Source: Candidatus Altimarinota bacterium
GTDB lineage: Bacteria > Patescibacteriota > Gracilibacteria > BD1-5 > UBA2023
NCBI GenBank assembly: GCA_031386685.1
Contig: JANNCQ010000067.1
Location: 71-64,070, forward strand
DNA length: 64,000 nucleotides
Reading direction: 5' to 3'
The notes under the pieces are model-generated. The model was not told the origin of the DNA and searched no databases. It worked only from the letters and a program-made list of their open reading frames with translations. Both the position numbers and the translations under genes were made by a program. This document shows positions 1,912 to 28,994 of this stretch, in pieces (positions within the stretch are counted from its first letter, which is position 1; the number at the start of each line of letters is the position of its first letter).

Positions 1912-1923
1912 TAACCAGAGAAT

Positions 1924-1955
1924 AAAAAAACTCCCGCATATGCGGGAGTTTTTTT
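1924..1955. terminator. bidirectional rho-independent terminator between hisS and the convergent giant gene
   Basis: Perfect hairpin CTCCCGCATATGCGGGAG (1931..1948), flanked by an A-run on the 5' side and a T-run on the 3' side. Confidence 0.7.
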
Positions 1956-4900: not shown

Positions 4901-6798
4901 GAATCACCTGTCGTATAAGCTACTCATGATGCGAGACATATAGCCGGTGATGGGACTCAGAATGCATTATCAATATCTAGATAATATTTTCTGATATTCG
5001 TCCCACTCACTATAGTTCATACTACCGGGATAGGGTCATCTGTAGTAAGTGTGACTGTGATATTCGCATTTTTCCATGTAGTATTTGCATTCGTCGCTGA
5101 GGCAGTAGGACGAGTCTTATCGAGACGATATGATCCACTCCAGAGTAAGCTTTGATTCGTAGCATTATCGTTCGCACAGAGATAGAGATCATTATCTCAT
5201 TCTACTGATCCGGTAATAGTCTGATTATCGATAAATGGTGTTCCTCAGGCAAGACATGCGGCAAGACTCGGTGCTGCTGCACCATTGTACTTCCATATAT
5301 ATTTTCTTATATTCGTATCACTCACGATAGTTCATACCGAAGAGGGAGGATCATTTGCGGAGAGGACGATAGTGATATCTACTTTTTTCCAAGTAGCACT
5401 TGCATTTGAGGCTGATACTGTAGGCACTTTCTTATCGAGACGATAGGTTCCTCACCAGAGTATGCTCTGGTTTCCAGCATTATCTGTCGCACAGAGATAG
5501 AGATCATGATCTCATTGTATTGTGACCGTCTGAGTAGCGCCATCAGAATAGGGTGTTCCTGAAGCGAGACAAGTAGCAAGACTCGGTGCTGCTGCACCAT
5601 TGTACTTCCATATATATTTTGCTGTATTTATACCACTTTCAGCATCTATCGCGTAGAGCGTGAGAGGGATATCAGCATTTTTCCAAGTAGTACCAGTATT
5701 TGAGGCGTAGACGGTAGGAGGCGTATTATCCCAGCGGTAATCAGCATTCCATGTATCAGTATTTCCTGCATTATCAGCGACACAAAGGTAGAGTGTATGG
5801 ATTCATGGCGAGGGCATACTAATAGCGTCATTATTCACGTAGTTTGTTCATGCAGTACATACTGGATTATCCCATCTATACTTTGCATAAGCTATCCCAC
5901 TCGATGGTGCAGGGTCAGATACAGAGAGTGTGATAGTAGGATTCGTAGAATACTGTCAAAGGATTACCATATTCGCAGAGACACTTGGAATGACACTATC
6001 AAAACGGTAGGTGCCATTCCATGTATCAGTATTTCCTGCGTTGTCAGCAGCACAGAGATAGAGTGTATTGATTCATTGTCCTGGTCGCGTGATCGTAGTA
6101 CCATTTACAAAATTTGTTCCTGTCGTACAGGTTGAATCATTCCATTTGTATCGAGTGTAGCTTATGCCACTTGATGGCGCAGTATCAGATACGGAGAGAG
6201 TAATATTCGAGTTCGAATTGGTCCACCCAGCAATAACGCTATCTGCAGAGACACTTGGAATGACACTATCAAGTTTATAGTCTGAGCTTGCCCAAGTACT
6301 ACTATTTCCTATGCCATCTTCAGCACAGAGATAGAGTGTACGCTGTCACTGACCAGGGATAGATGTCGTATTCCCATTATTATATGGGGTTCATGCAGCG
6401 AAACAGTTATTCACATCCCATATATATTTTGCGTAGCTCAGCCCACTTCATCCCCAATCTGAGGACGAAAGAGTGATGGTCACATTTACCTTTCTCCATG
6501 AAGTAGATGCATTGTTTGCAGAAATACTGGGATCAGTAGCATCCCAGTATTCGCAATACATCCATGGACCAGATAGTCAAGTAACTCTTGTCTGGGAATA
6601 ATGTCTTTCCACTCCATCTGTCCCAGGATATAATCAACCCGGAACTGGTGTAGGATCTATAGTATCTGCTTGGCCATCTGTACTACAATATCCTAGACCC
6701 TGGTTAAACCATCATCCCCCATACCATGCTGCTGATACTTCCAGTGCTGCACTGAAAAATCATAATACAAGGAGAAATATATATATTTTTGTTTTCAT
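1954..6798 (-). CDS. giant secreted surface protein (1614 aa) with tandem Ig/OmpL47-like repeats
   Basis: One frame is open from ATG 6798 to TAA 1954 once TGA is read through. Track ORFs 3448..3630 and 4018..4275 lie in this frame. N-terminal signal-like MKTKIYIFLLVL-G-FFSAALEVSAA. Repeats carry the signature (H/N)TLYLC(A/T)xDNAGN..W. Confidence 0.8.
4300..6560 (-). repeat. seven tandem coding repeats (period about 271-318 bp) inside the giant surface protein
   Basis: The plus-strand string GCACAGAGATAGAG (antisense of LYLC) or a close variant recurs near 4538, 4856, 5174, 5489, 5779, 6050 and 6323. Confidence 0.75.
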
Positions 6799-6890: not shown

Positions 6891-7832
6891 ATGTCTCTCT
6901 CTCAATTATCTCTTCTCATCATCTTTATGAGTATCAACGTACTCATACTTCGAGAAGATTTTATAAGCAGAAAAATACCCAATAAATATATTATCTCTCT
7001 CTTTCTTCTTTTACCCTTTTGGTGAGTATTATTTTTTCCAGAAGATTTAAGAGTACTCCTGCCACACTGTATTCTTTTTTTGATTCTTATAATTATTGGG
7101 ATATTTTCAGAAAAAGAAAAATGATTCTTTGGTGGGTGAGATATTAAGTATTGAGCCCTGATTATTCTCTTTCTTTCTGGAAGATCTCTCTCAGTGTTTA
7201 TCGGAAATATTTGAGTATTCACGCTGCTAATCCTTATTTTTTGGTGGTCAATGATTCTTTGAAAGATATATACTGTTCGACCTGATATCATTCATGAATT
7301 ATCGTGTAAAAGACTGAGAAAAGTCATACGAGAAAATCACTTCATAAAGTCAACAGTATTCTTTATATTTGATTGGATTGTAATCGGCATTTTTCTCTAC
7401 CTTGCTATGCAAGATATTCTTATAGAAATGTTCCAGATAAACATTTTTGGAGGCCAGCTCTACTCGATAGTAGCAATAGGAATTTTCTTCTTACGACCAA
7501 GTATAAAGAATCTTATAAAAAACTCAAAGTATGGTTTCTTTGTTATTGTTTTCATATGACTATATTTTATCTCGAAGATCCAAGCTAATGGTATCAGCTA
7601 TTTTCTTACGACTCTTTTCATATTTATAAAAAGTATCTGGATATATGCACTGGTATTTTCTTCTCTCGGATGGATTACCCGAAAGACTTTTCTCAAATAT
7701 GATGCCCTGATAGATAAAAAAAATATTGGAAAATCATTTGATACTATTGCTTATTCATTTGTGATTTTTCTCGCATTTATTGTGACTTTTTTTCTCGATT
7801 TCTCCTTTATCGAGTGGATATGTAGTCCTTAA
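6891..7832 (+). CDS. A24-family prepilin peptidase-like membrane protein
   Basis: Polytopic hydrophobic 313 aa protein. It has the two aspartate motifs of type IV prepilin peptidases (REDFISRKIPN and G-FFGG-G-DIKY-G-AL, with three Gly encoded by TGA). Confidence 0.7.
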
Positions 7833-8893
7833 GAGAGTACTTTCGGAAAGTCTCATTGCACTTTATGAAAATGTTCTATGAGTCAGGTCCTTGCCCGATG
7901 AATCGTAGAGGAAGAGAATCATGATTCTTTGATAAATCATAGGCATTCTTGATGGACCGATCGCATTTCTTCTAAGATTTCTTTCCCAAGAGGACAGAGG
8001 TTTGCATACTTATCGAGTACTTGGAGAGAAAGACCATTTTTGAGTACATATAAGATCGTCTTTTCGATCCAATTTTCTGGAAGTATGATAATTCCCTGTA
8101 TATGCGCATTCAGTATGACCCAATATGCTCATACTAGAGCATGAAGACCAAGATATATTCAGTGAATATGTCTTGCATCTGGCCTATAAGGAGAGTAGTA
8201 TATCTGCTTATAGTCATTCTGTATAAGTGTTTCTGTTTGCATAATAATATAGAGTTTATTATGGTTATACTCGTGGAGGATAGCCTCGAGTAATGCCAAC
8301 TCTGGAAGGTCCATATCTTCTGGGTAGCTCATAAGCAGATGCCCGATAGCATCGGAAAAAGAACCAGAATTATGCACTCAAGAACTCACATCAAACGGGA
8401 TAATCTTATGGATTACGTTATTGATCTCACTCATAAAACCTGGAGAAACTTTCTCAAGAATAGAGAAGGATTTATTAAATAAAATGTGCCACTCATCCTG
8501 TGTTTTCATTCAAAATGATGGGGTAATATTATTTTTTATATGATCTGGATGAAGTTGGTTATGAATATTTGGATTCTGAAAATCTAGAGTTATTAAAATA
8601 TTTGTACCTTCAAGAGCTTGTCCTTGATCGATCAGAAAATTACCTCATTGTGCACAGTATTTTTCATACTCTCTCAAAATTAACAGACGAATCTCTTCTT
8701 GCTCAATTTTTCAAGACCTCACTAGCGTAAGGAGGAAATAATGGATGTCTGGCGAAAGGAGGAAATTGTCTTTTGGTTCTTCGGAGGTAATATACTCAAT
8801 CCATAATTTCCGAAGTTTCTCTAGAAAATTACTCCTATACTTATCTAGAATTGGATTTTTTATGTTTCCAAGGGTTGAATAATACATATGCAA
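7829..8893 (-). CDS. HExxH-motif putative peptide-modifying protein
   Basis: 354 aa with LLEAILHEYNHNKLY (HExxH). It is the last gene of the radical SAM operon, 24 bp downstream of the preceding gene. It merges track ORFs 8159..8377 and 8711..8893. Confidence 0.7.
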
Positions 8894-8917
8894 TAACAGT
8901 CAATGTTATAAGAAAAT

Positions 8918-9811
8918 CTAAAAAAGTAATTTATGCGCACTACAGATATCTGATGATTTCTTAATTCAGACTAATTTAAATAAAGTCTCTTCTGAATCGA
9001 AATTATGAATAGAAAGGTGTTTCTTGAGATAGAGTGCTCTTGTCGGAAAACACTTATAAATACTCCCATCAATATCAATATCAAATTTTCAGCTAAACCC
9101 TTCACATCAATACCTCAGATGGATACCAAGATCATTCATGTAATCTATTTCTGACTTATGAAATATATCCTTAGATAGTCAACATGAAAAAACAAACTCA
9201 AATTCTTTACCATATTCTTTTATTATACTGAAGATATATTCTCAGTACTTCCTTGATCCTGTATCAATAATAAGTGGATCTCCTATAATTGTATTTGTTA
9301 TCTTGAGATTTAAATGAGAGATATTAGTATCTCTTGCGACCTTGACTATATCATAAAATGATTTTGAAAGATCATATATATTATATCCTATTGTCATACG
9401 CGTTCTCGCATTCTTAAAATATTTAAGATTATTTATGACACGTTCGTACTCTATATCAGAGTAAAAGTCACGATTATTCACATTTGCATTTATTGTATTG
9501 GGTATTGACTTTTCGTTTTGGAAAATATTTTGGATATATTTCTCAGGGAAGTTCAGGTTCGAAAAAAGTCGAGTATGGAATCATCCCTTATGAGCCAGAA
9601 GGAAGAACTTATTCAGCTCTGGATGAAGAAGAGGTTCTCATCAAAGAAATCGAACATCTTCATATCAAAATTTTCGAAGGAATCGAAGAATCTGGATAAA
9701 AGTAGATATTTTTTGATTTTTTATTGGTAAGGCATCTTTGTTCATGCTATCTTCAGCAAAGCAATATGAACACTTTTGATTACAAGTATTATTAATGATA
9801 ATATTTGGCAT
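8918..9811 (-). CDS. radical SAM protein 1
   Basis: N-terminal CNQKCSYC (CxxxCxxC) followed by FL-G-GEPLLHP (GGE motif, first Gly is TGA). 297 aa. Starts 3 bp after the upstream gene stop. Confidence 0.75.
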
Positions 9812-9814
9812 AAG

Positions 9815-10798
9815 TTAGTCTGAATGCTTATTAATACGTTCAATTATAGCTGACCTCTCTCACAGAGTAAGCTTTTGCGGTCGGTATTCAACAAAATTAA
9901 AATATCACGGATGATCCATTCAAAAAATATTAGCAGGTTGAGCTAACCAAATGCCAGCACAGATAGTATTTAAATCACAATCATTACATGATTTTCATTT
10001 GTCGTGAATAAACCATTGGGATTTTTGTTCGACTATTTCTCGTTCATCGAGAAAATGAACAATTCGTTCTTCATCTTTTACTATTTTTCGTGTTTCCGTG
10101 GAAAAATGCTCAAATCACCTCATATAGCAAAGAGGCACTCTCTCGACGCGAAATGTTCTACCTGTAGATTCCAGATATTCCATAGCTCTATGAAGTGGAA
10201 ATTCAAAGGCGGCAAAGTCTGGCAAAGTCGAGAGTGCTGTTTCTGTTTTTCTCATCATAAGTGGATCTAGATTGTTCCAGACAAAATGCTGAATTTCAGG
10301 AAATTGTTTTACAAGAAACTGAACTGTAATATCAAGATGAGACTGATTATAGTGATTAATTGCTGTATTTATCTGGACACGCACACCAAGAGAGATGGCA
10401 TTCTTTATCGAGAACATGAGTCTCTTCCATGAGCCTGGCGTATCTGTAAGGAAATCATGGATCTTCGGATTATAAGAATACACCGAAAAATGAACGAGTT
10501 CGAGTCACGCATCAGCCAGTTTCTTCATATAGGGAAAACTTGCACACATCATCCCATTGGAGATAATACGTGATTCTATCCCAGATTTTTTTGCATATGC
10601 TATCCACCGTGAGAGATCTGGAGAAAGTGTTGGTTCGCCGCCAGTAAATATCACTCATCGATATTTACGCACGATAAAATCATCAATAATTTCTACTCAC
10701 TTTTCATAGGAAATATTCTGGCCATTTGAAGGATTTGAACAAAAATGGCAAGCATTATTACAATGACGATTGACCTGAATGTAACCAATATTTGCCAT
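9815..10798 (-). CDS. radical SAM protein 2 (C-terminal Cys-rich SPASM/twitch-like region)
   Basis: MANIGYIQVNRHCNNACHFC, then FTGGEPT, and C-terminal KSCNDCDLNTICAGIW. 327 aa. Includes track ORF 10115..10483. Confidence 0.8.
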
Positions 10799-10800
10799 GT

Positions 10801-12129
10801 CTAGGATGTAATAGGAGAGAATATATTAAATCAATATGAACGAATAAAATTTATATGTACTCATTCACAGCTATGATTATACTTACACTTTGTACACTGA
10901 ATAGATTTCTTTCGATAGAGATCCATGATATAGTTTTTAGTATAATTTCAAACTAATTTTTCTTTCGAGAGATCACTGCTATATTCATAAAGTCCTTCAT
11001 TATTGTCCTTTCTCATACAATAGGGAATATTGACTAGTTTTTGCCCAGGGGAAAGTGAAAGATCTTGTATTTTTTGAAGGAATTGTTCACCAGTATCACC
11101 ATATTTCTCATAGACTTTACTTGGGAACTCTTCTCAGCGTAAGACAATATATGTATTATTCCTTCTTGGCTCCCATCCATCATCTGCAAGGATATACTTA
11201 TCTCCAGGGGGGAGCTGTATATTTTGATTTTTTATATACCCATGACAGTATTGTTTTAAAAAACATACATTACAGGCTTCGCCATAACAGTGAGGCTTGT
11301 GATTTCATGAAGAAGCAATAAATTTTTGAAAATCCTCCAAAGCCTCTCCCATCACTTCAGATTTTATTTTTCGAGGATCTTGTATGAGGTCTTCAAATCA
11401 TTCGAATGCTTCAGCGGGAAATCTATTAGTCCACATATACATACCTGGAATACGAGAAAGTCTCCATGTTTCATGAAGAGGCTTAATATAGTCTTCTATC
11501 TTATAAAAAAGGATATCCTTGTATTCTGAAAATCCTCTTCAAAAAGGAATAATTTGAAGAATATCAAATTCATAAACTCAAAGTCGCATAAAAAATTGGA
11601 CCATTTTAGGAAGATATTCGACATTGAGTTTATTCACCACCATATCAATATTGATAATTATATTTGGATAATACTTCCGGATATGAATAAGTCACGCTAA
11701 CGCTTTTTCAAATGATCATGGCGTTGCCGTGAGATAATCATGAAGTTTTTTTGTATGTCAGTGAAATGAAAATGTAACTTCCTGTAATCATGCGTCAAAT
11801 ACTTTTTTACAAAAATCAGGGCGAGAAAACATATTTCCATTTGTAACTGTCTGTATACGGTCATATCCTATAGATTTTGCATAACTGATGTAATCAGAGA
11901 ATCTTGGGTTTATACTTGCTTCTCATCCAGAGATAATAATTCTATTGTACACTCCTGCCTTATAGCCCGATGTTATTTCATCTTGAATAATAGTCTGATC
12001 TATAAGCTTCCCATTTTGGGCATCCGCGTCAAGACAAAAGAGACATTTCTCATTACATGCAGCTGCAATACGTACCCAAATTCGATTTTCTTTAGTAGTT
12101 TTTTCTTTTAAAATAAGATTATTATTCAT
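10801..12129 (-). CDS. radical SAM protein 3 (Cys-rich C-terminal domain)
   Basis: CNEKCLFC, IISG-G-EASINP, and C-terminal CNHKPHCYGEACNVCFLKQYCHG plus CTKCKYNHSCE. 442 aa. Its stop lies 2 bp before the next start. Confidence 0.8.
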
Positions 12130-12133
12130 AGGA

Positions 12134-12718
12134 CTATTTTTTTTGTAAGATATATGTGCTTCTCACGCAAAGATCAAATTGAGTCGTATCCTTAATTTCT
12201 TCAATAAGAGTATACTTATTTTTTATAAAAGAGAGAATTTTTTGACGAGAAACTCACCAAATCGGCACATTATCTATAAAGAATAATGGTGTCTCTTCAT
12301 TATTCTCAAAAAAACGGATACAGATATAGCCCCCTGATTGAAGGAGCTTATCGTATTTTAAAAGTATAGCCATGTGTTGAGAGGTATCGATACAATGAAG
12401 GCATCCAATATCGATAATACAATCAAATCTATCTTCATATTGAAAATCAATAATCGAGGAAGTAAGAAATGATATATTATTTGATGCAAACTTTTTAATA
12501 TTATAATCAATTGGTATTGAGGAAATATCGATTCATAGGTACCTTTTATTTTTTCTTATGCATTTTTCTGCGATCTTGGAATAACCACAGCCAACATCTA
12601 GAATATTATCCCATCACATGGCTCAATATTTCTCGAAAACATATAAAATTTCTGGCTCAATTCAAGATGATCACCAAACTATATTAATACCATATTTTTT
12701 GTAGAGAAGATCAAACAT
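12134..12718 (-). CDS. class I SAM-dependent methyltransferase
   Basis: 194 aa with the motif I sequence ILDVGCGYSKIAEK and a post-I acidic residue. The gene is embedded in the operon. Confidence 0.7.
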
Positions 12719-12857
12719 ATATTCGAAAAGTTAATAAGGTCAGATATCCCTCTGCCGAAAAGTCTAATTTAATCTCACAAGCTAGAACTCAGGACAACCC
12801 AAAAATGAGCTTACTAAAATAAAAATCTATTTTAATAATATACTCAGTAGCCTTAAA

Positions 12858-13595
12858 TTAACTAGCTATTATGGCATGGAAGAGGTGTGTCAAGCTCGGG
12901 ATTCTAGGAAAGTTTTGCAAAACTACATGGGAAAGTAATTCTCGAGGATTTTCTTTGATGAGAATTCGCAAAAGTTCTTTTTTAGAAATCAATTCGCTGA
13001 GACTATCATTCGGCATAAATTGTGGGTAGACAATTTTTACTATCTTGGTATTTGAAATATCCAGCATATATTCAAGTATCTCTCTTGAATAGGAGATATT
13101 TGAATATATAAATATTGTCTGTAAAGAAATACCTATATTCTTCTTTGTTTTTATAGTTTCTAAATTTCTATGAAAAAATTTCCATGAATCTCTACTCCCT
13201 GTAATTCGTTCTTGCAAAAGGGAATTATGTCAGTAAAGAGAAATCTCTACTGAATCGATATTATCCAGAATTTCCTTTTTTAAAAGCATAGTATTTGATA
13301 TTCTTAATGTTACTACTATATCTTTATAGTTTGTTTTTATCGAAAGCATAAACTCTGAAAGCCCCTCCCAATCTAATGGCTCATTTCACGAGATATTGAG
13401 GTTATCTGCTATTCAAAGGTCAAATCTCTCATACCAATTACTCAAGTCTTCTCGTGTTAGAAAATGAAAGAACTGATATTTCTTTGAATCCATCATAAAT
13501 ATCGGCCGTGGGAAATAAATAAGATCACGTCCTCTCTTACAAAATAAGCACATTCATTTACAATCCGTAAATCATAAGTAAATATCAATTTGCAT
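12858..13595 (-). CDS. radical SAM protein 4 (short, no SPASM)
   Basis: MQIDIYL-G-FTDCK-G-MCLFC gives CxxxCxxC when TGA=Gly. 245 aa. Includes track ORF 12858..13217. Confidence 0.65.
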
Positions 13596-13642
13596 AGTCT
13601 ACTGGAAGTTAGTATTAATTATAAAATTGAATAACGAATCCT

Positions 13643-13685
13643 ATAGATTTCTTTCATATGATAAAATTATATGAAAGAAATCTAT
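13643..13685 (-). promoter_or_regulatory. 17-bp perfect inverted repeat inside the cluster (attenuator, terminator or processing hairpin)
   Basis: ATAGATTTCTTTCATAT, a 9-nt loop, then ATATGAAAGAAATCTAT. It sits in the only long (286 bp) spacer of the operon. Confidence 0.5.
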
Positions 13686-13881
13686 TAATGGCAAATAAAA
13701 AAAATTGAATTAGAAGTTCTTCTCGTTTAGATCGTTAATATTTCTGAATATCCCGAAAGTTTATTGAGAGGTATTATTTCAAATTAAATATTCTAAAAAT
13801 ATATAATTATCCTGAGGATATAGTCGGATGAAAAACATTTACTGTGATAATTTTATGGTACTTATACGCTTCTTATTATAG

Positions 13882-14595
13882 TTACACCTTCTGTATAAGT
13901 TCAGGAAATCTGTGGCTAATCATTTTTAGGAAGTTATAGTAGTTTTTTCTCACTCTACGATGCATATCGTCATCTCGTATTGATAGGAGTAAGTATTTAT
14001 AAGTAGAGTCAAAATTAAATACAACTTGTTCTCCATATATTGTAAGGCCTTCTAAATTAAAGTTGGCATTCTCGATACTATTTGATATGCAGGAATATTG
14101 TAAGAAATTACTAATATTAAATTGTAATTTTAAGTCTTTCCAATTGAAATATACTAGGTCTTGACTGAGCAATAATCCTATAGCATGCTGTAATATGTTT
14201 ATGAAATCTGATTGAGTATAGGCTGATACCTCTATGCTATCAATTTTTTGTAACTTTTTAGTCTCTAGCGGTAGAAAAATCTCATCAATAAAGAAAATCG
14301 TCTTTGGACGATCTCTGAGTAACTCAAGTAAATCAAAATTATAGGTAACTGGTTTTTCTATAATCAAATATCCCTGGTAATTAGATTTTAGTATTCGTTT
14401 TATAACTTGAGTTTGTTCAGAAATAGGAGAAATAGCGGAAATAATAATTTCATATCTATTGGGTAAAAAATTATCTATTTTATCTGTACTCTCCCTCCCT
14501 GTTCTCGTAAATATATCAGGATTATGATTTATGTACCTCCAAAATTGCACATGCTTTTTTCACTGTGCTCAGAATCAAATTACTGCGATTTTCAT
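13882..14595 (-). CDS. NAD(P)-binding Rossmann oxidoreductase (Gfo/Idh/MocA-like N-domain)
   Basis: N-terminus MKIAVI-G-F-G-AQ-G-KKH is a GxGxxG motif with all three Gly encoded by TGA (14575-77, 14569-71, 14560-62). An IIEKPVT motif follows. 237 aa. Confidence 0.7.
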
Positions 14596-14601
14596 ATTTC
14601 A

Positions 14602-16059
14602 CTATAGTGAGAAGTAGATAAAGTCTTTTAAGAATGCTTTATTGGATCGATCATTTTTAGGAAGATGAATACAGATATCAGAATTCCTCGGTAATGAAAT
14701 AACTTCATCTATTTTCCATAGGTGAGTAGGATATATTAAAACATCCAAGTGAATACGAAATTGAAATTGTGTTCATAGATTGTACTTAAGTATGGTATCT
14801 ATTAATTGGGATGTACTGCCTTTATCTTTTGCTAAAATTTGTATATTCATTCCTGCAAATTTTTTATAGTCTATATTAGAGACATAGTTATTAAATATCA
14901 GCGATACCCATGCATATCATAAACTACGAATATGTAAGAGAATGTCTTCGAGGGATTCACTCAATCATTCCACAAGGACAAAAAATTGTCTTTTTCCACC
15001 ACTATATTCACGACTTATTTGATCCTGATTATCTGAAAAGCTAGTATCTCATTGTACCAATTTATACGTATATGGTTTTAATTTTTGAAAATTTTCAAAT
15101 TCTTTCCAAACTCCGCTACATACTCGCTTAGCTGGACACAGATTGCACGACAAAGGGTGCACTTTATTATCATCATTTATTGCCTGTATAAGAGTCTGCT
15201 CTTGGTTTTTAGAAAATAAATTTTTATTATGCATATACTCCATACTGCTTCCCCACTCATTCAAATAGCATAATGGAAGTCAAACAAGGTGTGAATGTAC
15301 TTTCTTTCCATGGGATTTTAGGAATGCAATCACTTTATTATATATATATTCTATCTCACTATACTGCCCGACTAAATTACCAAAATTCTCCTGTGCCATA
15401 CCATGCGGTTGGACATAACCTATATTATATAAAGAAACACTTGGATATTTCTGCATGAGATATTGAACATGGTCAAAATAATGATCTTTATTTAAGTTAT
15501 TCAGCACGATATTAAATGTAACTGAAACTCCTGCATGAATAAGGGACCGAACTCCTATGTCAAACCTAGGTCACATAACGAGATAATCTACACCAATTAT
15601 TTTCTGAAATATTTCTGGATCATGAGCGTGAGAAGAGATAAGTGCTTGTTGAACTCATAATTTTGCTAATTTTGAGGCAAATACTTCATCAATATTTGAA
15701 GCATTTGATTGTAAATCAAATGTTACCTTGATGTCTCTCTTTCTAAAAAATTCAGTAAAATATTTTAAACTAAATATAGTTTCTTTTTGAAATATACTCG
15801 GCTCTCAACCTGAAATAGTAACATTTATATGGTCACCAATAAATTTTGAATACTTTATCTTGTAAAAAGTTATTGCAAGTATTTCTCGAATAGAGGATTT
15901 CATGCTTAAGACTGACTCATTCTCTGCAACATTACAAAATATGCAACGAAAGTTACATCATTTTCAGACTCTGATGATAAGCTGATCTGAAGACTCTAAA
16001 TTATCTTGTTGATTCTTTCAAGAAAAATTAGTACGGTATTTTATATTTCTTTTTGCCAT
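14602..16059 (-). CDS. radical SAM protein 5 (candidate HxsC-like partner maturase) with an uncharacterised ~150 aa C-terminal extension
   Basis: CNFRCIFC, TISG-G-EPSIF, and C-terminal HPLSCNLCPAKRVCSGVW. 485 aa. Merges track ORFs 15280..15507 and 15049..15264. Confidence 0.75.
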
Positions 16060-16069
16060 CTTAAAAGTA

Positions 16070-16738
16070 TCACTTTACAAATGTGGAGCATTCGATAGAG
16101 CTCTTCTTTTCGTAAGCGTCAGAAACTGCGAGTATAAGATTATACAGATAATTATAAAACTTCGATTTTCCTGCATGGTTTTCCAAAAGTTTACTTACTT
16201 TCTGCAAATACTCAATAAATGAAATATTCCCGCTATGAAAACTATTAAGTGCATCATTCATAAGTTTGAAATCCCCTGTTTGATTTCCTTGAGAATCATA
16301 GGCGAGCAGGATAGACTTATTATCAGCCATAAGTCTTCGTAATTCGACCTCAGGAGAAGACGAGCTCAGTCACTTTTGAAATAATTCACAAATATACATC
16401 ATAGGGATAAATGTATCTATTCATTGATAATCATATATTTCCTTCCCACTCCCCGATTTTATATATTTCTCAATTATACTGTACTGCGACTTATAATTTT
16501 TATATGAAGCATCATAGTCATTCCCCATCTTTATGGCATCAAAATCTCATCTTCAAAATTTATTACCCATATCTTCCTCCCGCCTTCATGATAAAGTAAG
16601 ATTAGGATTATTAGAAGAGTCATCTTTTTTCAAATCTTCTAGCACCTTTTTCTGGTTTTGAAGATAAAATCAATAGTATACAAACAAAAGGCATACAAAA
16701 ACCAGTAAGAAAACTATTGAAGTAGATTTATTATTCAT
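16070..16738 (-). CDS. membrane-anchored hypothetical protein
   Basis: N-terminal transmembrane segment MNNKSTSIVFLLVFVCLLFVYY. 222 aa. Starts 6 bp after the HxsA stop. Contains track ORF 16070..16330. Confidence 0.55.
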
Positions 16739-16744
16739 AATATT

Positions 16745-17530
16745 TTAGTAAGCAGCATGACTTCCATGACTTCCATGACTTCCATGTGTCTGATTTCCAT
16801 GACCTATAGCAGACGGAGAAACAGGATTTAAATACGATACAGGAGGACTATAGTTCAGATGTCAATTCCTAGAATCATCGAGAGGTGCTGCTCCTAAATT
16901 CTGATATACAGTTCATGCATTTGCATGACAACTTTGATCTATTGTAGATATGAGTTCGGTTCAAGGCCATGGCGAGGTAGGAGTTCATGCTGTAGTATCA
17001 ACCCCTGGAACCACACAATTTGCAGAAACTGCATAGCCACTTACTAGACCATAATCATCAGCAGCATTCACATGCCTTACAGTTCATACATCACTTACTC
17101 AAACATCTGCAGTTACGAATCGGCCATTAAGTGCTTGATTGACATGATTTGCCGTAGCTGTACCAGCAACATAGTATGTGGGACTATTCCCATGGCCTCA
17201 GCCACTCACTGGATCACACACCCAGGTCCATGGATCATCCCAATAACAGTTTTCTACATAGTTATTGTTCCCATGTCCAATTTGAGCAACTCCTGGCGTA
17301 TTGGTTCAAGATATCCAAGCATTTGCATCACTCGTAGGAAGTATATTTGCAATTCCCATAGTCATCATAGTGATTTTGAGTATATCCTCCTTAGTGATCT
17401 TACCACTCTCGTCAGAAAGAAAACCTTGTAATTTTTTTCTGAATTTATGTATGATTTTTTTCTTTTTTTCTTGCATGATTGACGAAAATATTGAAAATAT
17501 TTCAGTAGCCACTATACTCCATTTTCTCAT
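16745..17530 (-). CDS. hxsA: His-Xaa-Ser repeat protein (HxsA-like putative radical SAM substrate)
   Basis: The C-terminus reads IGHGNQTHGSHGSHGSHAAY-stop (plus-strand CATGACTTC repeats at 16757-16790). Two more GHGN motifs lie upstream. There are eight in-frame TGA codons. The true start may be the internal MQEKKKK. Confidence 0.75.
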
Positions 17531-17551
17531 AAATCCAACTTTTTTATACTC

Positions 17552-19012
17552 TTATCTTTTAAACCAGGAACGAAATATCTTTTCATTCTCAGGGTCTTCT
17601 AATTTTTCGAAGATATAGTCGAGCATTGATATTTGGATACGAGTTTTATCATCTTTTGAAAAATTCGAAAACACATTTCCATGCTGAGTAAAAGCATAGA
17701 TAATATCTACTCCCATGTAGGGCTTATACACATGATCAGTATAGCCTGGAAGTCCATCGAGTGTCGATGATATCACCGCTATCTTCGTGACATCACTATT
17801 CGCCATAGCTTTATAAGTCTCCTTTCCTGTTTCGAGCATTGGCGTAAGGAGAAAATCTTCTATACCCATTCGACCAAGCATTCGAGATTCATCACTTGCA
17901 TAAACTTTCCCATCATAATTATAGGCAACTCCTCCTATAGCGATTCATGATGGCGACCGAATATCCATAAATGAACTATCTGTATTGAAAAATAATTTGT
18001 TAAGATATACGAGAGTGAGCATCTCTCGAAGGATAATTCATTCTCTATTCTTCTCGAGAATATAGTCCATAGCATTCTTATAAAATTCGAAGTATTCATC
18101 CAGTGAATATTCAAGTGTCTCTCTTTCTGCTGCAGCAAATCCGTAAGGATTGAGCCATCTGAGTCAGATAGTAGGAAATCCAAGTTCTACATATGTATCT
18201 ATAATATTCTTATAGTTCTTAAGTCCTGGCTTTGTCCACGTAGCGAGAGTCCCTGTTTTGTATCAAGTTTTTCACCGTTTCTCATTCTCTTCGTTAATGC
18301 GTTTAATCCAGTGCGTTACTCTTTCATAACTATCCCCTTCTTTCCATGTTCTTTGCCAATTATGAGTCTCCTTATCTCCATCAAGTGAAGTACAAATTTC
18401 TACTCAATGATCAAGAAGCCATACGAGCTTATCTTCAGTCATGAGGGTAAGATTCGTCACTATCGTGAAAGAGAGAACTTTTCGGAACAAATTAGCCTTC
18501 ATGCGAGCATATTCAACGATGAATTGAACAACTTCCCAATTCACAAGAGACTCTCATCACTGAAATTCGATCGTCAAGGCCGGGGCTGAGGTATAAAATA
18601 TAGTATCTACAACTTTTCTCGCTACATCTTGTGTCATATCAAGATTCTTAGCAGACATAGGAGCTACTGCAGCATGACAGTACTTACACTTATGATTACA
18701 TCTCAGTGTCGTGACGATCATATGAAGGCTTGGACCATAGGCAAGGAACTTATTTTTTTTATTATATGAAATTATAGCTCTATCTTGATACTTTTCATTT
18801 TTTATAAAAAGTTTCTTATTCAGCTCATCATATTTCGGATTTCCGACTCCTATATTTCCTGCGAGATAATCCTCGAATTCAGCGAAATCAAGAAATGTAT
18901 AATATCCAAATTCATTGGTAATAAGATACTTTCCATTTTTCATCTTTTTATAATAAAAAGGTGCGACTGTGGTCGCTGAAAAATTCTTTATTGAGGAAAG
19001 TGTTATGCTCAT
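17552..19012 (-). CDS. hxsB: His-Xaa-Ser system radical SAM maturase HxsB-like
   Basis: 486 aa with CNHKCKYC, TIEFQ-G-G-ESL (GGE, both Gly are TGA), and an anaerobic-sulfatase-maturase-like middle region. Merges track ORFs 18557..19012 and 17552..17881. Confidence 0.85.
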
Positions 19013-19224
19013 GCTATAATTTCAGAATAAATAGAAAGTGCACAATTCATAAACTCATCAAATACAAATTGGGGATTCTCATCATCGATAGAAAGAGTAT
19101 TTCTATCGATGGTAATATCGTATCCCTCAAAATACTCCTGTGTTTGTAGAAGAAGTTCAAGAGAGTAGATACTATTGTTTATGTTGAAAGTTTTTTTTGA
19201 CATTTTTAAGTTTACTCGGATCAA
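19009..19224 (-). CDS. hxsD: small HxsD-like protein
   Basis: About 65-71 aa. It has a 4-nt ATGA overlap with hxsB. Position and size match the small accessory protein of Hxs operons. The start may be MSKKTF at 19203. Confidence 0.5.
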   Translation of the reverse strand: MIRVNLKMSKKTFNINNSIYSLELLLQTQEYFEGYDITIDRNTLSIDDENPQFVFDEFMNCALSIYSEIIA

Positions 19225-19747
19225 TTTTAGGTTTGGATTGGGATAATTCCGATTGTGTTTCCATTTCTATTTCAGCAAGGATACGACTGATCTCTGCTTC
19301 ATCTATTTTAAGGTCAGGATCATTCTCAATTTCTTTTAATATCTCATCGATATCTTTATCAAAATCTATCTGTGTATTTTTGGGTTCTACTGGGATCGTA
19401 GTAAAGTTCGGAAGATCAGCGTATGATCCAAGAGCACGGCGTACTATAGTTTCACGGATTGTCTTATTTTCTATCTCTATTTTATCTCTTAGGAGTGTAG
19501 CGAGAAGCTCATCGCTATACTCAAGTGCGAATACTTCAGCACTCCAGCGTTCTCATTCTTTCGGGTGTATTTGTACTATGAAATTTTCTCCCTCCTTTTG
19601 GAAAAAAAAATAGGCACGATCGAGGAACATATATGCAGCTTTCAAAATAATATTTTGTGGAAAAATTGATCCATCTACGAGAAGCTCAAGGCGATTATTT
19701 TGCGAATTTTGTGAGAGAAATGAATGCATAGGAAAAATATAACGCAC
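19172..19747 (-). CDS. HxsD-like protein with acidic C-terminal extension
   Basis: 191 aa. The segment EYSDELLATLLRDKIEIENKTIRETIVRRAL resembles the LLNDYxLRE-type signature of HxsD. It is the first gene of the cluster and its 3' end overlaps the next gene. Confidence 0.5.
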
Positions 19748-19831
19748 CCATAATACATAAATTCGAAAAAAAAGAAATCAAAAGAAAAAGAAAATTCTCG
19801 ACATCAATAGTTTTTTTATCATAATGGGCGG

Positions 19832-20851
19832 ATGCACCTTCTTATCGACGTTCGTACTTCTTGCCTTTCGGATATACCGAATCTCTACTATGCTCAGATG
19901 TGGGCAGATATATGGCTTTCCTACCACAGAAATGACCGGATCACTTTTCTTGCTTTTGAGGGTGATCCTGTGGAAGGATATGAGTGTATCTTTCTCTCAA
20001 GAAATTGGGTACTACTTCAAAAAAAACTTGCTTCACATAACTATGGGCCTGATCGCATCGTCTCATTCTCGAAATTTCCTCCTATCGATCGATGAATTCC
20101 CTCTCTTCTTCATGTAGATGAGCTGACACATAAGCTCTATCCACATACTCAAGAATGATTCTTCACACGCTACAGGAGTGAATCACAGTATAAAAAAAAT
20201 CTGAAATTTTCGAGCCATATCATTACCCCCAATGTGGCTATCAGAGAAACTCTCTGAGAACTCTATGGTGTAAATGAATCAAAAATCACTCTACTTCCCT
20301 ACTTAAGTGCTTGAGACAAGAAAAAACATAGAGATCAGTCTATACTTCCCCATGGTATATCTGGAGAGTATTTTATCACCGAGTGAACTCCCTGAGATGA
20401 GTGGAATCCACGAGGTCTCCTGGAGGCATTTCAGAGATATATTCATGAAAAAAATGGAAATAGGCAGCTGATCATCATCTGAGATCTGTGAATAAATCTT
20501 AGTAACCTCTCTCTCCTCATACGATCTCATGGACTTATAGAAAAAGTAAAAATCCTCTCAGTCATATCACAAGAAGAGAGATCTCTCCTGTATGCTCACG
20601 CAAAGTGATGGATTTATATATGATACTACTATAGTCGGTGATCGTCAGTAGAGCTTGCAAGTTCATATGATATACCCCTCTATCTTTCAGATATATCCTG
20701 ACTCATATGATATAATGGGGTATATATTCATCCAAATCATGTCGATACACTCGCTGATATACTCTCAAATTCGCATATGGATGGCATTTCTCATCCAAAA
20801 AATGATAATCAAGAAATCATGCGAGTCTATGCACGAATCATCAGTGAGTAA
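19832..20851 (+). CDS. GT-B fold glycosyltransferase (GT1/GT4-like)
   Basis: 339 aa with TGA read through. Carries LIII-G-DL-G and G-WIYI-G-YYYSR-G-SSVELASSYDIP, typical of group 1 glycosyltransferases. Divergent from the rSAM cluster. Confidence 0.7.
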
Positions 20852-20970
20852 AACTTGCAAAAAAGATGATCCTAGATAGGATGGAAGGAGATAAAAACTC
20901 TCTGATGTAATAAAAAAATGAATTACTTTTTGCTAATTATAGAATAATCTACCCATTAATATTCAATCCT

Positions 20971-21435
20971 ATGTCCAAACTCTTCGGCGTCAGTAAGACA
21001 TCACAGTGAATCTCTGAAACACATACTACTCATCATGATTCTCATGATCATGACACACACGATGTGATAGAGGTAGATATGCATGATTCTCATGATCATG
21101 AGATCGATGTAGGACAGATAGCACTCGATGTTCTCGATCTTGCAGAAGAGATCATCATAGTCGCCCCAGTAGCAGGAGTCGATCCAAGTGAGATCGATAT
21201 AGCTCTCTCACGCAATATTCTCACTATATCCTGAGAACGGACACATCAGCCGATTTATCTCGATGCGAAAAGAATGCTCGTAGAAGAATGCTACTACTGA
21301 CCATTTTCTCGGTCAATCATCCTTCCTGAGAACCTCGCTTTTAATAAAATCAAAGCGACCGTCGATAATAATACGATCATGATACATATACCAAAAATTA
21401 GCTTTTTCTCAAAAAGCATAAAAATCGATCAATAG
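20971..21435 (+). CDS. Hsp20/alpha-crystallin small heat shock protein with a His/Asp-rich N-terminus
   Basis: LTIS-G-ERTHQ..EECYY-G-PFSRSIILPENL..ATVDNNTIMIHIPK matches the alpha-crystallin domain. 154 aa. Confidence 0.85.
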
Positions 21436-22939: not shown

Positions 22940-24097
22940 ATGAATATTCGATTTTTCCTCCTTCTGCTTGTTGTTTCATGTATTACCATTATTGGGCTCT
23001 TCTCATGGACTGCATATGGATATTACCAGACAATCCATATGGATGATCCGATCGAGCCGACACTCTCTATAGAGTTAGGATATGGAAAAATCATACGTGG
23101 AGATATTGCTATAGATCTCTCCCTCGGCGAGTCATACACACTCAAAAATGCCGATACCATAGAAACGGGTGAAAATAGCGTGGGGATAGTCAAATGGCCT
23201 GATGGAAGCATCACTCGACTCGGAAGTATCACTCGAATCGTCATACAAAAGATGTATGTAAGTCAAGATTATTCGAGCATACAGATCGGATACGATATAC
23301 AGCGTGGGAAGGCGTGGAATACTGTCATACGATTGCTTGTGGGAGATTCCTACTTCGAAGCTCGTCTCCCAAAAGATAATATCATCGCAGGAGTGCGAGG
23401 TACTGTTTTTGAAGTGAATCTCGATCGTCAGTATATTCAGGCTATAGAACATGCCACATATCTCACCGATAGATCAGGAAAGTCTCTTGATCTCTTTCCA
23501 TGAGAACTCGTAAGTAGTGAGAATATATGGCTGCGTAAAGGCCGTGAATGGGTAGATACAACCTGGAATGACTGGAACACTCTATCAGACAAAACCTACG
23601 AACAGATTCGCTCCATCCGTATAGAGAAGTATCTGGATGCTCTCAGAGAAAAGACTCATTCTTATTTCTCCCTCGGTGAACTCACTAAAAAAATACTCTC
23701 ATATTTCCCTGGTTTTGAGTCTATCAGAATCACTGAGTACCTCGGATCTGGCAATACTGGAAGTCTCGCAAAAGTCAGCGAAAAAACATTGCTCGAATAC
23801 TACCAAAAAATCTCTGGGATTGCATCACCTGAGTACCGCGACATAATCCGTACGACCATCATATCAAATATAAATGAAAGTAGTACATCAAAAGAGCTCA
23901 AAAATCTCTTAGAACAATCGAGTCTCTGGGAAAGTATCGATGCGGGGAATATCCTTCCTTGAGCTGAAAAGTTCCTCAAGGAAAGAGGAATTGATACAAC
24001 TGAATTCTCGAAAAAATTCAAAGATGGTATGAAAAATGATACAAAAAAAATCTTCGAAACTTTCTCTGGAAGCCTCGGATGATTCATTCAATTCTAG
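22940..24097 (+). CDS. FecR-domain membrane-anchored protein
   Basis: Signal anchor MNIRFFLLLLVVSCITIIGL, then a FecR-like beta region (GIVKWPDGSITRLG..VRGTVFEVN). 385 aa. Confidence 0.6.
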
Positions 24098-28984: not shown

Positions 28985-28994
28985 ATTGAATAAA

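What the first reader, a model, noticed from the sequence alone, without database searches (positions are those of the whole stretch)
7829..19747. 12-kb co-directional cluster with six radical SAM enzymes, HExxH protein, methyltransferase and oxidoreductase fused to a His-Xaa-Ser (Hxs) module
Thirteen minus-strand genes are packed with 2-24 bp gaps or overlaps, with three longer spacers (139, 286 and 21 bp). The gene order is HxsD-like, HxsD, HxsB, HxsA, a membrane protein, rSAM5, a short Rossmann oxidoreductase, rSAM4, a SAM methyltransferase, rSAM3, rSAM2, rSAM1 and an HExxH protein. Every rSAM call rests on a visible CxxxCxxC, and most also show a GGE motif. As I know it, the canonical Hxs system is a four-gene unit (HxsA-D). 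Here it is embedded in a much larger tailoring set that also resembles rSAM/SPASM plus HExxH peptide-maturation loci. Six rSAM genes in one locus of a small-genome, code-25 CPR organism suggests a heavily modified ribosomal peptide or protein product of unknown structure and function. I could not find a second obvious precursor ORF, so all enzymes may act on the HxsA-like protein.
Basis: partly seen in the sequence, partly recalled or inferred. Interest (0 to 1): 0.9.

Follow-up and report, generated by a model that had tools for sequence, protein, structure and literature searches.

The report
Expanded multi-radical-SAM His-Xaa-Ser maturation locus
A tiny-genome Gracilibacteria-type bacterium spends 12 kb on thirteen genes, six of them radical SAM enzymes, that most likely modify one exported protein ending in His-Gly-Ser repeats; this is an undescribed, enlarged relative of the four-gene HXS system recently shown to block phage DNA entry in E. 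coli.

Summary
With TGA read as Gly, 7829-19729 (-) carries 13 tightly packed co-directional genes. In order they are HxsD, a 66-aa HxsD-like ORF, HxsB, an HxsA-type protein ending HGSHGSHGSH, a membrane-anchored protein, rSAM5, a Rossmann-like protein, rSAM4, a SAM methyltransferase, rSAM3, rSAM2, rSAM1 and an aKG-HExxH hydroxylase. All six rSAMs pass Pfam's threshold and are the only such ORFs in the 64 kb.

HxsD and HxsB pass their curated cut-offs, but no gene qualifies as HxsC. rSAM3 and rSAM2 are HxsC-like families that no NCBIfam model covers. They are not add-ons. They sit side by side in 29 of 33 Gracilibacteria-type loci. In Myxococcota, Bradymonadales, a Parcubacteria MAG and a MAG labelled Gammaproteobacteria they lie next to HxsD, HxsB and (HGS)n proteins.

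The whole 13-gene order recurs in at least five other species. Four to eight motif-bearing rSAM ORFs per locus is typical of loci with enough sequence, so six is not unusual.

Most likely this is an expanded Hxs-type maturation pathway for an exported His-repeat protein. Its chemistry and biological role are untested. I rate it a new variant of a known kind.

The parts
19172..19729 (-). HxsD (185 aa)
   Evidence: It scores 61.8 bits on TIGR03976, above the cut-off of 50. The start was set by orthologues. It is 64-74% identical in L004, L006, L007 and L030.
19003..19203 (-). HxsD-like small protein (66 aa); overlaps HxsD by 32 bp and HxsB by 10 bp
   Evidence: The ORF was found. Orthologues are 46-55% identical in L004, L006, L007 and L030, and 30% in L003. 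All six orthologues hit NF038315 HxsD_rel, the best at 4e-14. The window copy scores only 18.3 bits against a cut-off of 41.
17552..19012 (-). HxsB radical SAM maturase (486 aa); SPASM cysteines lost
   Evidence: It scores 461.4 bits on TIGR03978, above the cut-off of 370. It carries CNHKCKYC and QGGE. It has only 4 Cys, and the SPASM Cys columns kept in Myxococcota orthologues are all substituted here.
16745..17476 (-). HxsA-type precursor (243 aa from the conserved start; 261 aa if it starts at 17530): leader motif FLSDESGKITK, hydrophobic segment ending ANA, variable region, C-terminal HGSHGSHGSHAAY
   Evidence: The HxsA3 and HxsA4 hits are weak (21.5 and 18.7 bits, below cut-offs). The columns FL.DE.GK and HGSHGSHGSH are invariant with (HGS)n proteins from four phyla.
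16061..16738 (-). Membrane-anchored protein X (225 aa), function unknown
   Evidence: It has an N-terminal hydrophobic helix and no family hit. The L001/L004 counterpart has a lipobox-like LSAC. Conservation is poor: 40% identity over 43 aa.
14602..16059 (-). rSAM5 (485 aa), HxsC-like paralogue with a C-terminal CxxCx5C motif
   Evidence: Pfam Radical_SAM scores 38.5 bits. The best NCBIfam hit is HxsC at 61.9 bits, far below the cut-off of 267.9. It is 52-59% identical in syntenic loci.
13882..14595 (-). Probable NAD(P)-binding protein (237 aa), Gfo/Idh/MocA-like N-terminal half
   Evidence: GFO_IDH_MocA scores 19.1 bits, below the gathering score of 24. GxGxxG and 'IIEKPVT' are conserved in the three known homologues. 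The N-terminal 100 residues model as a beta-alpha-beta fold, but the whole model is weak (pLDDT 58) and only generic Rossmann matches appear.
13596..13881 (.). 286-bp spacer, likely the scar of a lost kinase-like gene; possible internal promoter
   Evidence: L006, L007 and L030 carry a 235-aa APH-like ORF at this position; L015 and L017 carry homologues about 1-1.7 kb upstream of their rSAM3. L001 has a frameshifted remnant (E 3e-16). Nothing is detectable here. The best sigma-70-like match of the region lies at 13694-13666 (-).
12858..13595 (-). rSAM4 (245 aa), minimal radical SAM protein
   Evidence: It carries CKGMCLFC and SGNE. Pfam Radical_SAM scores 31.1 bits against 29.5. It is 36-51% identical in syntenic loci.
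12134..12718 (-). Class I SAM-dependent methyltransferase (194 aa)
   Evidence: Methyltransf_25, _31, _11 and _12 all score above their gathering scores. It is 44% identical in L001 and L004.
10801..12129 (-). rSAM3 (442 aa), HxsC4-like core enzyme with eight invariant C-terminal Cys
   Evidence: NF038332 HxsC4 scores 141 bits, far below the cut-off of 500, and HxsC scores 81.7. More than 400 homologues exist, 55-69% identical in Gracilibacteria. Invariant Cys are listed. The model (pLDDT 84) matches PDB structures only over the rSAM core.
9815..10798 (-). rSAM2 (327 aa), the most HxsC-like enzyme; always paired with rSAM3
   Evidence: HxsC TIGR03977 scores 87 bits, far below the cut-off of 267.9. 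It is 60-88% identical in 29 of 33 Gracilibacteria-type loci and 43-51% in other phyla.
8918..9811 (-). rSAM1 (297 aa), generic radical SAM protein
   Evidence: Pfam Radical_SAM scores 46.8 bits. It is 74-75% identical in L001, L004, L006 and L007.
7829..8887 (-). aKG-HExxH-type peptide hydroxylase (352 aa; motif HEYNH)
   Evidence: TIGR04267 scores 58.7 bits, above the cut-off of 40. It matches PDB 22nu (9.5e-9) and ChlH 8s5f (1.5e-6). It is present downstream of rSAM2 in 16 of 33 Gracilibacteria-type loci.

Best explanation
This locus is an enlarged, lineage-specific form of the His-Xaa-Ser (Hxs) protein-maturation system.

Shown here:
- It encodes an HxsA-type precursor with a conserved N-terminal leader motif (FLSDESGKITK).
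- After the leader come a hydrophobic segment ending in an AxA-like site, a variable middle, and a C-terminal (HGS)3 repeat.
- It also encodes HxsD, an HxsD-like protein and HxsB.
- It carries two HxsC-like radical SAM enzymes (rSAM3, rSAM2) that travel with these genes across phyla.

Inferred:
- In the cytoplasm, HxsD and the HxsD-like protein present the precursor to the radical SAM enzymes. In E. coli HxsD binds HxsC.
- HxsB, rSAM2 and rSAM3 install covalent modifications on the H-G-S units. rSAM2 and rSAM3 keep C-terminal Cys motifs for auxiliary Fe-S clusters that HxsB has lost.
- A lineage-variable accessory set (rSAM5, rSAM4, rSAM1, the methyltransferase and the NAD(P)-binding protein) adds further modifications.
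- The aKG-HExxH enzyme hydroxylates a side chain, with His the obvious candidate, or trims the short C-terminal tail.
- The leader is then removed and the mature His-rich product is exported to the cell envelope.
- By analogy with E. coli HXS it may bar phage DNA entry, but that role is the least secure step.
For: - HxsD and HxsB pass their curated cut-offs.
- The HxsA leader motif and HGS repeat are invariant with (HGS)n proteins encoded next to HxsB. These occur in Gracilibacteria, Myxococcota (L037, which passes HxsA4 at 111 bits against 55), a Parcubacteria MAG (L040), a MAG labelled Gammaproteobacteria (L042) and Bradymonadales (L079).
- rSAM3 and rSAM2 best match HxsC4 and HxsC among 18,950 NCBIfam models.
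- The rSAM3-rSAM2 pair is present in 29 of 33 Gracilibacteria-type loci. In other phyla, 30 of 52 rSAM3-anchored loci have rSAM2 and 24 of 52 have both HxsD and HxsB within 10 kb.
- The full 13-gene order recurs in L001, L004/L005, L006 and L007 and in the contig-truncated L030, and partly in L028, at 36-88% protein identity.
- Genes overlap or lie 1-6 bp apart for most of the cluster.
- The HExxH protein belongs to a family that hydroxylates His, Asp, Phe, Gln and Pro and can cleave C-terminal tails in radical-SAM-modified peptides.
- E. coli HXS shows HxsB/C/D-dependent N-terminal processing, a +8 Da modification in an HxS repeat and export of HxsA.
Against: - No enzyme here has been assayed, and the chemistry of even the canonical system is unsolved.
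- No gene passes the HxsC model.
- The window's HxsA scores well below the HxsA3 and HxsA4 cut-offs and has only three repeats.
- HxsB has lost every SPASM cysteine and may be catalytically altered or inactive.
- A 286-bp spacer containing the best promoter-like site splits the cluster into two possible transcription units.
- The flanking genes are also syntenic in the closest relatives, so synteny within that sub-clade could reflect shared ancestry rather than function.
- The stable chromosomal position among housekeeping genes is unlike a typical defence island.
Confidence: 0.6

Rival explanations
1. There are two neighbouring but separate systems. One is an Hxs module (HxsD to the Rossmann-like gene) acting on HxsA. 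The other is an independent operon (rSAM4 to HExxH) that modifies a different, unidentified peptide or small molecule.
For: The 286-bp and 139-bp spacers interrupt otherwise tight packing, and the strongest promoter-like match lies in the larger one. Many Gracilibacteria loci show rSAM3-rSAM2-HExxH with no HxsB in the 10 kb fetched. In 28 of 52 loci from other phyla, no HxsB was seen near rSAM3.
Against: rSAM3 and rSAM2 sit directly beside HxsD and HxsB in 24 loci from other phyla. Several of the loci that lack HxsB are cut by contig ends, or carry an HxsA fragment at the locus edge (L017, L012, L014). The larger spacer is a gene-loss scar, not an ancestral operon boundary. No second precursor ORF is present.
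Confidence: 0.15
2. The product is a released, diffusible peptide cut from the C-terminus of HxsA, such as an antimicrobial, a signal or a metal-binding peptide. It is not an envelope-bound protein effector.
For: Only the leader motif and the (HGS)n tail are conserved, and the middle is hypervariable, as in leader-core peptides. rSAM plus aKG-HExxH plus methyltransferase is a typical peptide natural-product toolkit. His-rich repeats could chelate metals (inference).
Against: No dedicated exporter or leader protease is encoded in the cluster. The precursor has a hydrophobic segment with an AxA-like site, as expected for export of a larger protein. In the one studied system the product is a roughly 170-residue periplasmic protein.
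Confidence: 0.15
3. The extra radical SAM genes are housekeeping enzymes (cofactor, haem or lipid biosynthesis) that merely lie next to an Hxs module.
For: There are secondary, sub-threshold matches to MoaA, NirJ, AhbD, BlsE and Tes models. rSAM3 and rSAM2 are highly conserved in sequence, and the chromosomal context is housekeeping.
Against: Every such match is far below its curated cut-off and weaker than the HxsC or HxsC4 matches. rSAM3 and rSAM2 co-localise with HxsD, HxsB and HxsA across phyla. The accessory rSAM set changes from lineage to lineage, which a housekeeping pathway would not do.
Confidence: 0.04

Closest known systems
HXS antiphage system of E. coli and Klebsiella (HxsD-HxsB-HxsC-HxsA; Li et al., Nat Commun 2026, PMC13128918)
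   Same: Both have HxsD and HxsB family members that pass the same curated models. Both have a precursor with tandem His-Xaa-Ser repeats and an N-terminal region that is processed or export-related. Both have radical SAM partners of the HxsC lineage.
   Different: Here no protein passes the HxsC model. There are six rSAM genes rather than two, plus a methyltransferase, an NAD(P)-binding protein, an aKG-HExxH hydroxylase and an extra HxsD-like gene. The gene order is D-D'-B-A-... rather than D-B-C-A. The precursor has uniform C-terminal (HGS)n repeats and no peptidoglycan-binding domain was detected. HxsB lacks its SPASM cysteines. The host is a code-25 candidate-phyla-radiation (CPR) bacterium, whereas 99.7% of reported HXS systems are in Pseudomonadota.
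NCBIfam variant Hxs families: HxsA3 (NF038309), HxsA4 (NF038313), HxsC4 (NF038332) and HxsD_rel (NF038315)
   Same: The leader of the window's HxsA aligns to HxsA3 and its repeat tail to HxsA4. A Myxococcota orthologue passes HxsA4. All orthologues of the small ORF match HxsD_rel. The best model for rSAM3 is HxsC4.
   Different: All window proteins score below these cut-offs. rSAM3 and rSAM2 orthologues from other phyla also fail HxsC4 and HxsC, so these two enzyme families are not modelled. I found no paper describing these variants.
Radical SAM plus aKG-HExxH peptide pathways (ChlBH-type triceptides, biphenomycin BpmH, PflC/PosC, PesO)
   Same: A radical SAM maturase and an aKG-HExxH enzyme are encoded together. 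Three-residue motifs beginning with an aromatic or His residue are typical cyclophane sites (my own knowledge of triceptides), and His is a known hydroxylation target of this family.
   Different: The HExxH domain is free-standing here, not fused to an rSAM domain. The substrate is a 243-aa protein with repeats rather than a short peptide. No activity is known for this branch.

Membership tests
His-Xaa-Ser (Hxs/HXS) system | HxsD protein (TIGR03976, cut-off 50 bits) | tested here: met
   It scores 61.8 bits.
His-Xaa-Ser (Hxs/HXS) system | HxsB radical SAM maturase (TIGR03978, cut-off 370 bits) | tested here: met
   It scores 461.4 bits over the whole profile.
His-Xaa-Ser (Hxs/HXS) system | HxsC radical SAM maturase (TIGR03977, cut-off 267.9 bits) | tested here: not met
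   The best scores are rSAM2 at 87.0, rSAM3 at 81.7 and rSAM5 at 61.9 bits.
His-Xaa-Ser (Hxs/HXS) system | Precursor with tandem His-Xaa-Ser repeats | tested here: met
   The C-terminus reads HGNQTHGSHGSHGSHAAY, and the HGSHGSHGSH columns are invariant across nine family members.
His-Xaa-Ser (Hxs/HXS) system | Precursor passes an HxsA-type model (HxsA3 cut-off 65 bits, HxsA4 cut-off 55 bits; canonical HxsA) | tested here: not met
   HxsA3 scores 21.5 bits and HxsA4 18.7 bits, and no other HxsA model was reported at E up to 0.01. Relatives come closer: L006 scores 53.2 and 46.3, and L037 passes HxsA4 at 111.
His-Xaa-Ser (Hxs/HXS) system | [quoted passage not shown] | tested here: not met
   The order here is HxsD, HxsD-like, HxsB, HxsA, X, rSAM5 and so on. 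The HxsC-like rSAM2 and rSAM3 lie 5-7 kb from HxsB (paper).
His-Xaa-Ser (Hxs/HXS) system | Blocks phage DNA entry through a periplasmic mature HxsA | not testable with these tools
   This needs phage assays, and the host is uncultured.
aKG-HExxH peptide hydroxylases (TIGR04267 / IPR026337) | Family model (cut-off 40 bits) and HExxH motif | tested here: met
   It scores 58.7 bits. The motif HEYNH aligns with the HEFQH of PDB 22nu, and ChlH 8s5f matches at E 1.5e-6.
aKG-HExxH peptide hydroxylases (TIGR04267 / IPR026337) | Fe(II)- and aKG-dependent hydroxylation of a peptide substrate | not testable with these tools
   This needs an enzyme assay.
Radical SAM superfamily (PF04055) | CxxxCxxC cluster motif and Pfam gathering score (29.5 bits), for six genes | tested here: met
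   The scores are 49.0, 38.5, 31.1, 58.5, 81.2 and 46.8 bits. The motifs are listed.
SPASM/twitch peptide maturases | C-terminal cysteines for auxiliary Fe-S clusters | tested here: inconclusive
   HxsB has lost all of them. rSAM3 has eight invariant C-terminal Cys, and rSAM2 and rSAM5 have CxxCx5C. No SPASM Pfam hit was reported, and the rSAM3 model matches PDB structures only over the core.
FxSxx-COOH (Fxs) system | Precursor ending FxSxx-COOH together with an FxsB maturase | tested here: not met
   The precursor ends SHAAY. No Fxs model appears among the matches listed for any protein. Only the HExxH family is shared.
Gfo/Idh/MocA oxidoreductases (PF01408) | Pfam gathering score of 24 bits | tested here: not met
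   It scores 19.1 bits. GxGxxG and the EKP motif are present, and the fold search gives only generic Rossmann matches from a weak model.

The most novel reading that the evidence does not exclude
rSAM3 and rSAM2 define two unmodelled radical SAM families that, with HxsB and HxsD, perform new chemistry on every H-G-S unit of an exported repeat protein. In Gracilibacteria this has become a vertically inherited, lineage-wide envelope trait with a plug-in set of up to nine radical SAM enzymes. It would then be a core feature of how these ultra-small, host-dependent cells build or protect their surface, not a sporadic defence island.
Probability: 0.25. Interest if true: 0.8.

Novelty: new variant of a known kind. 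Interest (0 to 1): 0.62.

Why it matters
- The chemistry of the Hxs system is unsolved even in E. coli, where only a +8 Da change on one repeat is known.
- This variant offers uniform (HGS)n substrates and a graded series of natural clusters carrying two to nine radical SAM enzymes. That series could show which enzyme does what.
- It extends a system reported as 99.7% Pseudomonadota into candidate-phyla-radiation (CPR) bacteria, Myxococcota and other phyla.
- A roughly 1-Mb genome (judged from relatives' 0.97-1.0-Mb contigs) spends more than 1% of its DNA on modifying one protein, and rSAM2 is among the best-conserved proteins in the region. Both points suggest a function important to these organisms.
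- It also flags two sizeable enzyme families that current annotation models miss. Public protein sets translate these genes with TGA as Trp, which corrupts the glycine motifs.

Tried and rejected
The database copy of HxsA was not on record, so the source record could not be named. Cluster look-up gave no names.
The alignment-based model was weak (pLDDT 58) and gave only generic NAD(P)-domain matches.
- Profile-profile comparison of the small ORF with HxsD was not significant (3.5% probability). Its HxsD-like label rests on NF038315 hits from its orthologues.
- I considered that 'LQG|FLSDE' in HxsA is a prepilin-type cleavage site served by the neighbouring A24-like peptidase. I rejected this because the Gly is not conserved in orthologues (SQ, QE or AD at that position).
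- I searched the spacers and the whole window for a second precursor and found no conserved small ORF.
- Rfam found nothing credible in 7000-21000.
- PADLOC (2023) gave only generic viperin-type rSAM matches.
- The promoter and terminator counts are at chance level.
- PDB sequence searches found no close solved relative of rSAM2 or rSAM3.

Full report

Under table 11 the region is a litter of short ORFs, the longest 281 aa in the whole window. With TAA and TAG as the only stops it resolves into long, abutting minus-strand ORFs.

TGA encodes Gly here. It supplies the conserved glycines of the radical SAM 'GGE' motif in HxsB (both Gly), rSAM5, rSAM4, rSAM3 and rSAM1. In orthologues from standard-code genomes the TGA positions of rSAM3, rSAM2 and HxsB align with Gly in 38 of 54 comparisons and never with Trp. 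Public protein sets hold these same genes translated with TGA as Trp (P0001, P0005 and P0126).

With starts refined against orthologues, thirteen genes run from 19729 down to 7829. The gaps are -32, -10, 75, 6, 1, 6, 286, 139, 4, 2, 3 and 30 bp.

All six radical SAM genes carry CxxxCxxC followed by GGE or GNE, and all pass Pfam's gathering score, although rSAM4 only just does. They are the only such ORFs in the 64 kb.

**2. What the genes are**

HxsD (61.8 bits against a cut-off of 50) and HxsB (461.4 against 370) pass their curated NCBIfam models. The HExxH protein passes TIGR04267, now named 'aKG-HExxH-type peptide beta-hydroxylase' (58.7 against 40). It also matches the solved ChlH structure 8s5f and the entry 22nu. 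The methyltransferase is a clear class I enzyme.

The small ORF is conserved in five other loci. All six copies hit the HxsD-like model NF038315, the best at 4e-14, but the window copy scores only 18.3 bits.

The 'Rossmann oxidoreductase' is plausible but below threshold:
- GFO_IDH_MocA scores 19.1 bits against 24.
- GxGxxG and the EKP motif are conserved in its only three known homologues.
- The model is weak, with a Rossmann-like N-terminal half.

No gene is a bona fide HxsC. rSAM2, rSAM3 and rSAM5 have HxsC or HxsC4 as their best models but score 87, 141 (HxsC4) and 62 bits against cut-offs of 268 and 500.

**3. The precursor**

The HxsA-like protein ends HGSHGSHGSHAAY and has only weak HxsA3 and HxsA4 hits. 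Relatives clarify what it is. Proteins encoded next to HxsB share the same architecture in Gracilibacteria, Myxococcota, a Parcubacteria MAG, a MAG labelled Gammaproteobacteria and Bradymonadales. That architecture is:
- an N-terminal K-rich stretch and the motif FL[ST]DE[ES]GK[IV]T;
- a hydrophobic segment ending in an AxA-like sequence;
- a hypervariable middle, often with an 'NGH' motif;
- a C-terminal (HGS)n run, with n from 3 to about 20.

Only FL.DE.GK and HGSHGSHGSH are invariant. A Myxococcota member passes HxsA4 (111 bits against 55). The window copy has the fewest repeats and an insertion of about 110 aa. No second precursor candidate was found in the spacers or elsewhere in the window.

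**4. Synteny and distribution**

rSAM3 has more than 400 homologues, many of them 55-69% identical over the full length in Gracilibacteria MAGs. A scan of one genome per GTDB species returned 80 loci. I mapped all 13 window proteins onto 85 loci.

The complete order is HxsD, HxsD-like, HxsB, HxsA, X, rSAM5, Rossmann-like, rSAM4, methyltransferase, rSAM3, rSAM2, rSAM1, HExxH.
- It recurs in L001, L004/L005, L006 and L007, in L030 as far as that contig reaches, and partly in L028.
- Protein identities range from 36-51% (rSAM4, Rossmann-like, methyltransferase) to 86-88% (rSAM2, HxsB).
- The methyltransferase itself was detected only in L001, L004 and L005.

The rSAM3-rSAM2 pair is present in 29 of 33 Gracilibacteria-type loci, and HExxH lies downstream in 16. 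The upstream part differs between lineages. Loci with enough sequence carry four to eight motif-bearing rSAM ORFs, and L002 has nine genes with a precomputed Radical_SAM hit in a row.

Outside Gracilibacteria, rSAM3 (37-45%) and rSAM2 (43-51%) lie beside HxsD and HxsB in 24 of 52 loci. The conserved core across phyla is therefore HxsD + HxsB + (HGS)n-HxsA + rSAM3 + rSAM2, and the other genes here are a lineage-specific accessory set.

In the closest relatives the flanks are syntenic too: HisRS, a 1614-aa surface protein, an A24-like membrane protein, a glycosyltransferase-like gene and an HSP20 gene. In more distant genomes the locus sits beside ribosomal-protein or sigma-70 and primase genes. 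This points to a chromosomal, vertically inherited locus rather than a mobile island.

**5. Details that bear on mechanism**

- HxsB here has only four cysteines. Every SPASM-domain Cys column kept in Myxococcota orthologues is substituted in the window and its close relatives.
- rSAM3 keeps eight invariant C-terminal Cys. rSAM2 and rSAM5 keep a CxxCx5C motif.
- A confident model of rSAM3 (pLDDT 84) matches solved structures only over the radical SAM core (viperin, BlsE, SkfB, MoaA, SuiB). Its C-terminal half has no solved counterpart. Sequence searches of the PDB agree.
- The 286-bp spacer is a gene-loss scar. L006, L007 and L030 carry an intact 235-aa APH/kinase-like gene at that spot. L015 and L017 carry homologues upstream of their rSAM3. 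L001 has a frameshifted remnant, and the window has nothing detectable. The best sigma-70-like match of the region lies in this spacer, but promoter-like counts overall are at chance level.

**6. What is known**

The four-gene HXS system of E. coli was shown in 2026 to block phage DNA entry.
- HxsC binds HxsD.
- 99.7% of reported systems are in Pseudomonadota, and 99.6% have the order D-B-C-A.
- The radical chemistry is unsolved.

aKG-HExxH enzymes hydroxylate His, Asp, Phe, Gln or Pro in radical-SAM-modified and other peptides, and can oxidatively remove a C-terminal tetrapeptide.

I found no paper on Hxs variants in Gracilibacteria or on multi-radical-SAM Hxs loci. PADLOC 2023 has no model for them.

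**7. Most likely mechanism**

- Shown: the parts list, the conserved core and the precursor architecture.
- Inferred: HxsD-type proteins present the precursor leader to the radical SAM enzymes.
- Inferred: HxsB, rSAM2 and rSAM3 modify the H-G-S units, and the accessory enzymes add further changes.
- Inferred: the HExxH enzyme hydroxylates a residue (His is the obvious candidate) or trims the short tail, which in most family members ends in Tyr or Trp.
- Inferred: the leader is removed and the product is exported to the envelope.

An antiphage role is possible by analogy. The stable housekeeping context and the strong conservation of rSAM2 and rSAM3 fit a lineage-core envelope function at least as well.

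**8. Verdict**

This is a real, conserved and undescribed enlargement of a known system, so I rate it a new variant of a known kind. It is moderately to highly interesting because it offers natural dissection material for unsolved radical SAM chemistry and extends HXS-type systems into candidate-phyla-radiation (CPR) bacteria.

Noticed in passing
window 17552-19012 (-): HxsB passes its family model strongly but has lost all SPASM-domain cysteines (4 Cys in total). Close Gracilibacteria orthologues show the same loss, whereas Myxococcota orthologues keep 7-8.
   Followed up: partly
window 13596-13881; L006 7887-8591; L001 3809-4218: The 286-bp spacer lies where relatives carry a 235-aa APH/kinase-like gene (APH 22 bits, just below the gathering score of 23.2). 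L001 holds a frameshifted remnant, so this is a gene-loss series.
   Followed up: yes
window 6891-7832 (+): A 313-aa polytopic membrane protein is convergent with the HExxH gene. It has a sub-threshold Peptidase_A24 (prepilin peptidase) match of 21.6 bits against 26.5. It is conserved at this position in at least seven relatives. It probably serves pilins: a pilin-like protein with an N_methyl motif lies at 27791-28993.
   Followed up: partly
window 1954-6798 (-): A 1614-aa secreted protein has a signal peptide and many repeated modules of about 95 aa ('TLYLCA.DNAGN'). It is conserved downstream of the cluster in relatives at 34-60% identity.
   Followed up: no
window 553-1914 (+): The histidyl-tRNA synthetase is 90-96% identical to copies in L004, L008 and L017, while neighbouring proteins are only 35-87% identical. 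This is an unusually steep conservation contrast.
   Followed up: no
P0001, P0005, P0126 (database copies of window genes): Public protein collections hold these genes translated with TGA as Trp rather than Gly. This puts Trp into glycine motifs such as GGE and GxGxxG.
   Followed up: yes
L002 1-12210; L003 12003-13502; L002 3877-4626: Other Gracilibacteria versions of the locus hold up to nine radical SAM genes in a row. They also carry PPDK_N (ATP-grasp-like) and TPR proteins that are absent from the window.
   Followed up: no
L004 13207-13755; L001 8993-9541: Some relatives carry an extra 182-aa gene between rSAM1 and HExxH. It has no family match and is absent from the window, where the gap is 30 bp.
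   Followed up: no
window 1-64000: No tRNA gene was found in 64 kb. Housekeeping genes include a PBP2-type transpeptidase (46876-49209) and an MgtC/DUF4010 membrane protein (24094-25476).
   Followed up: no
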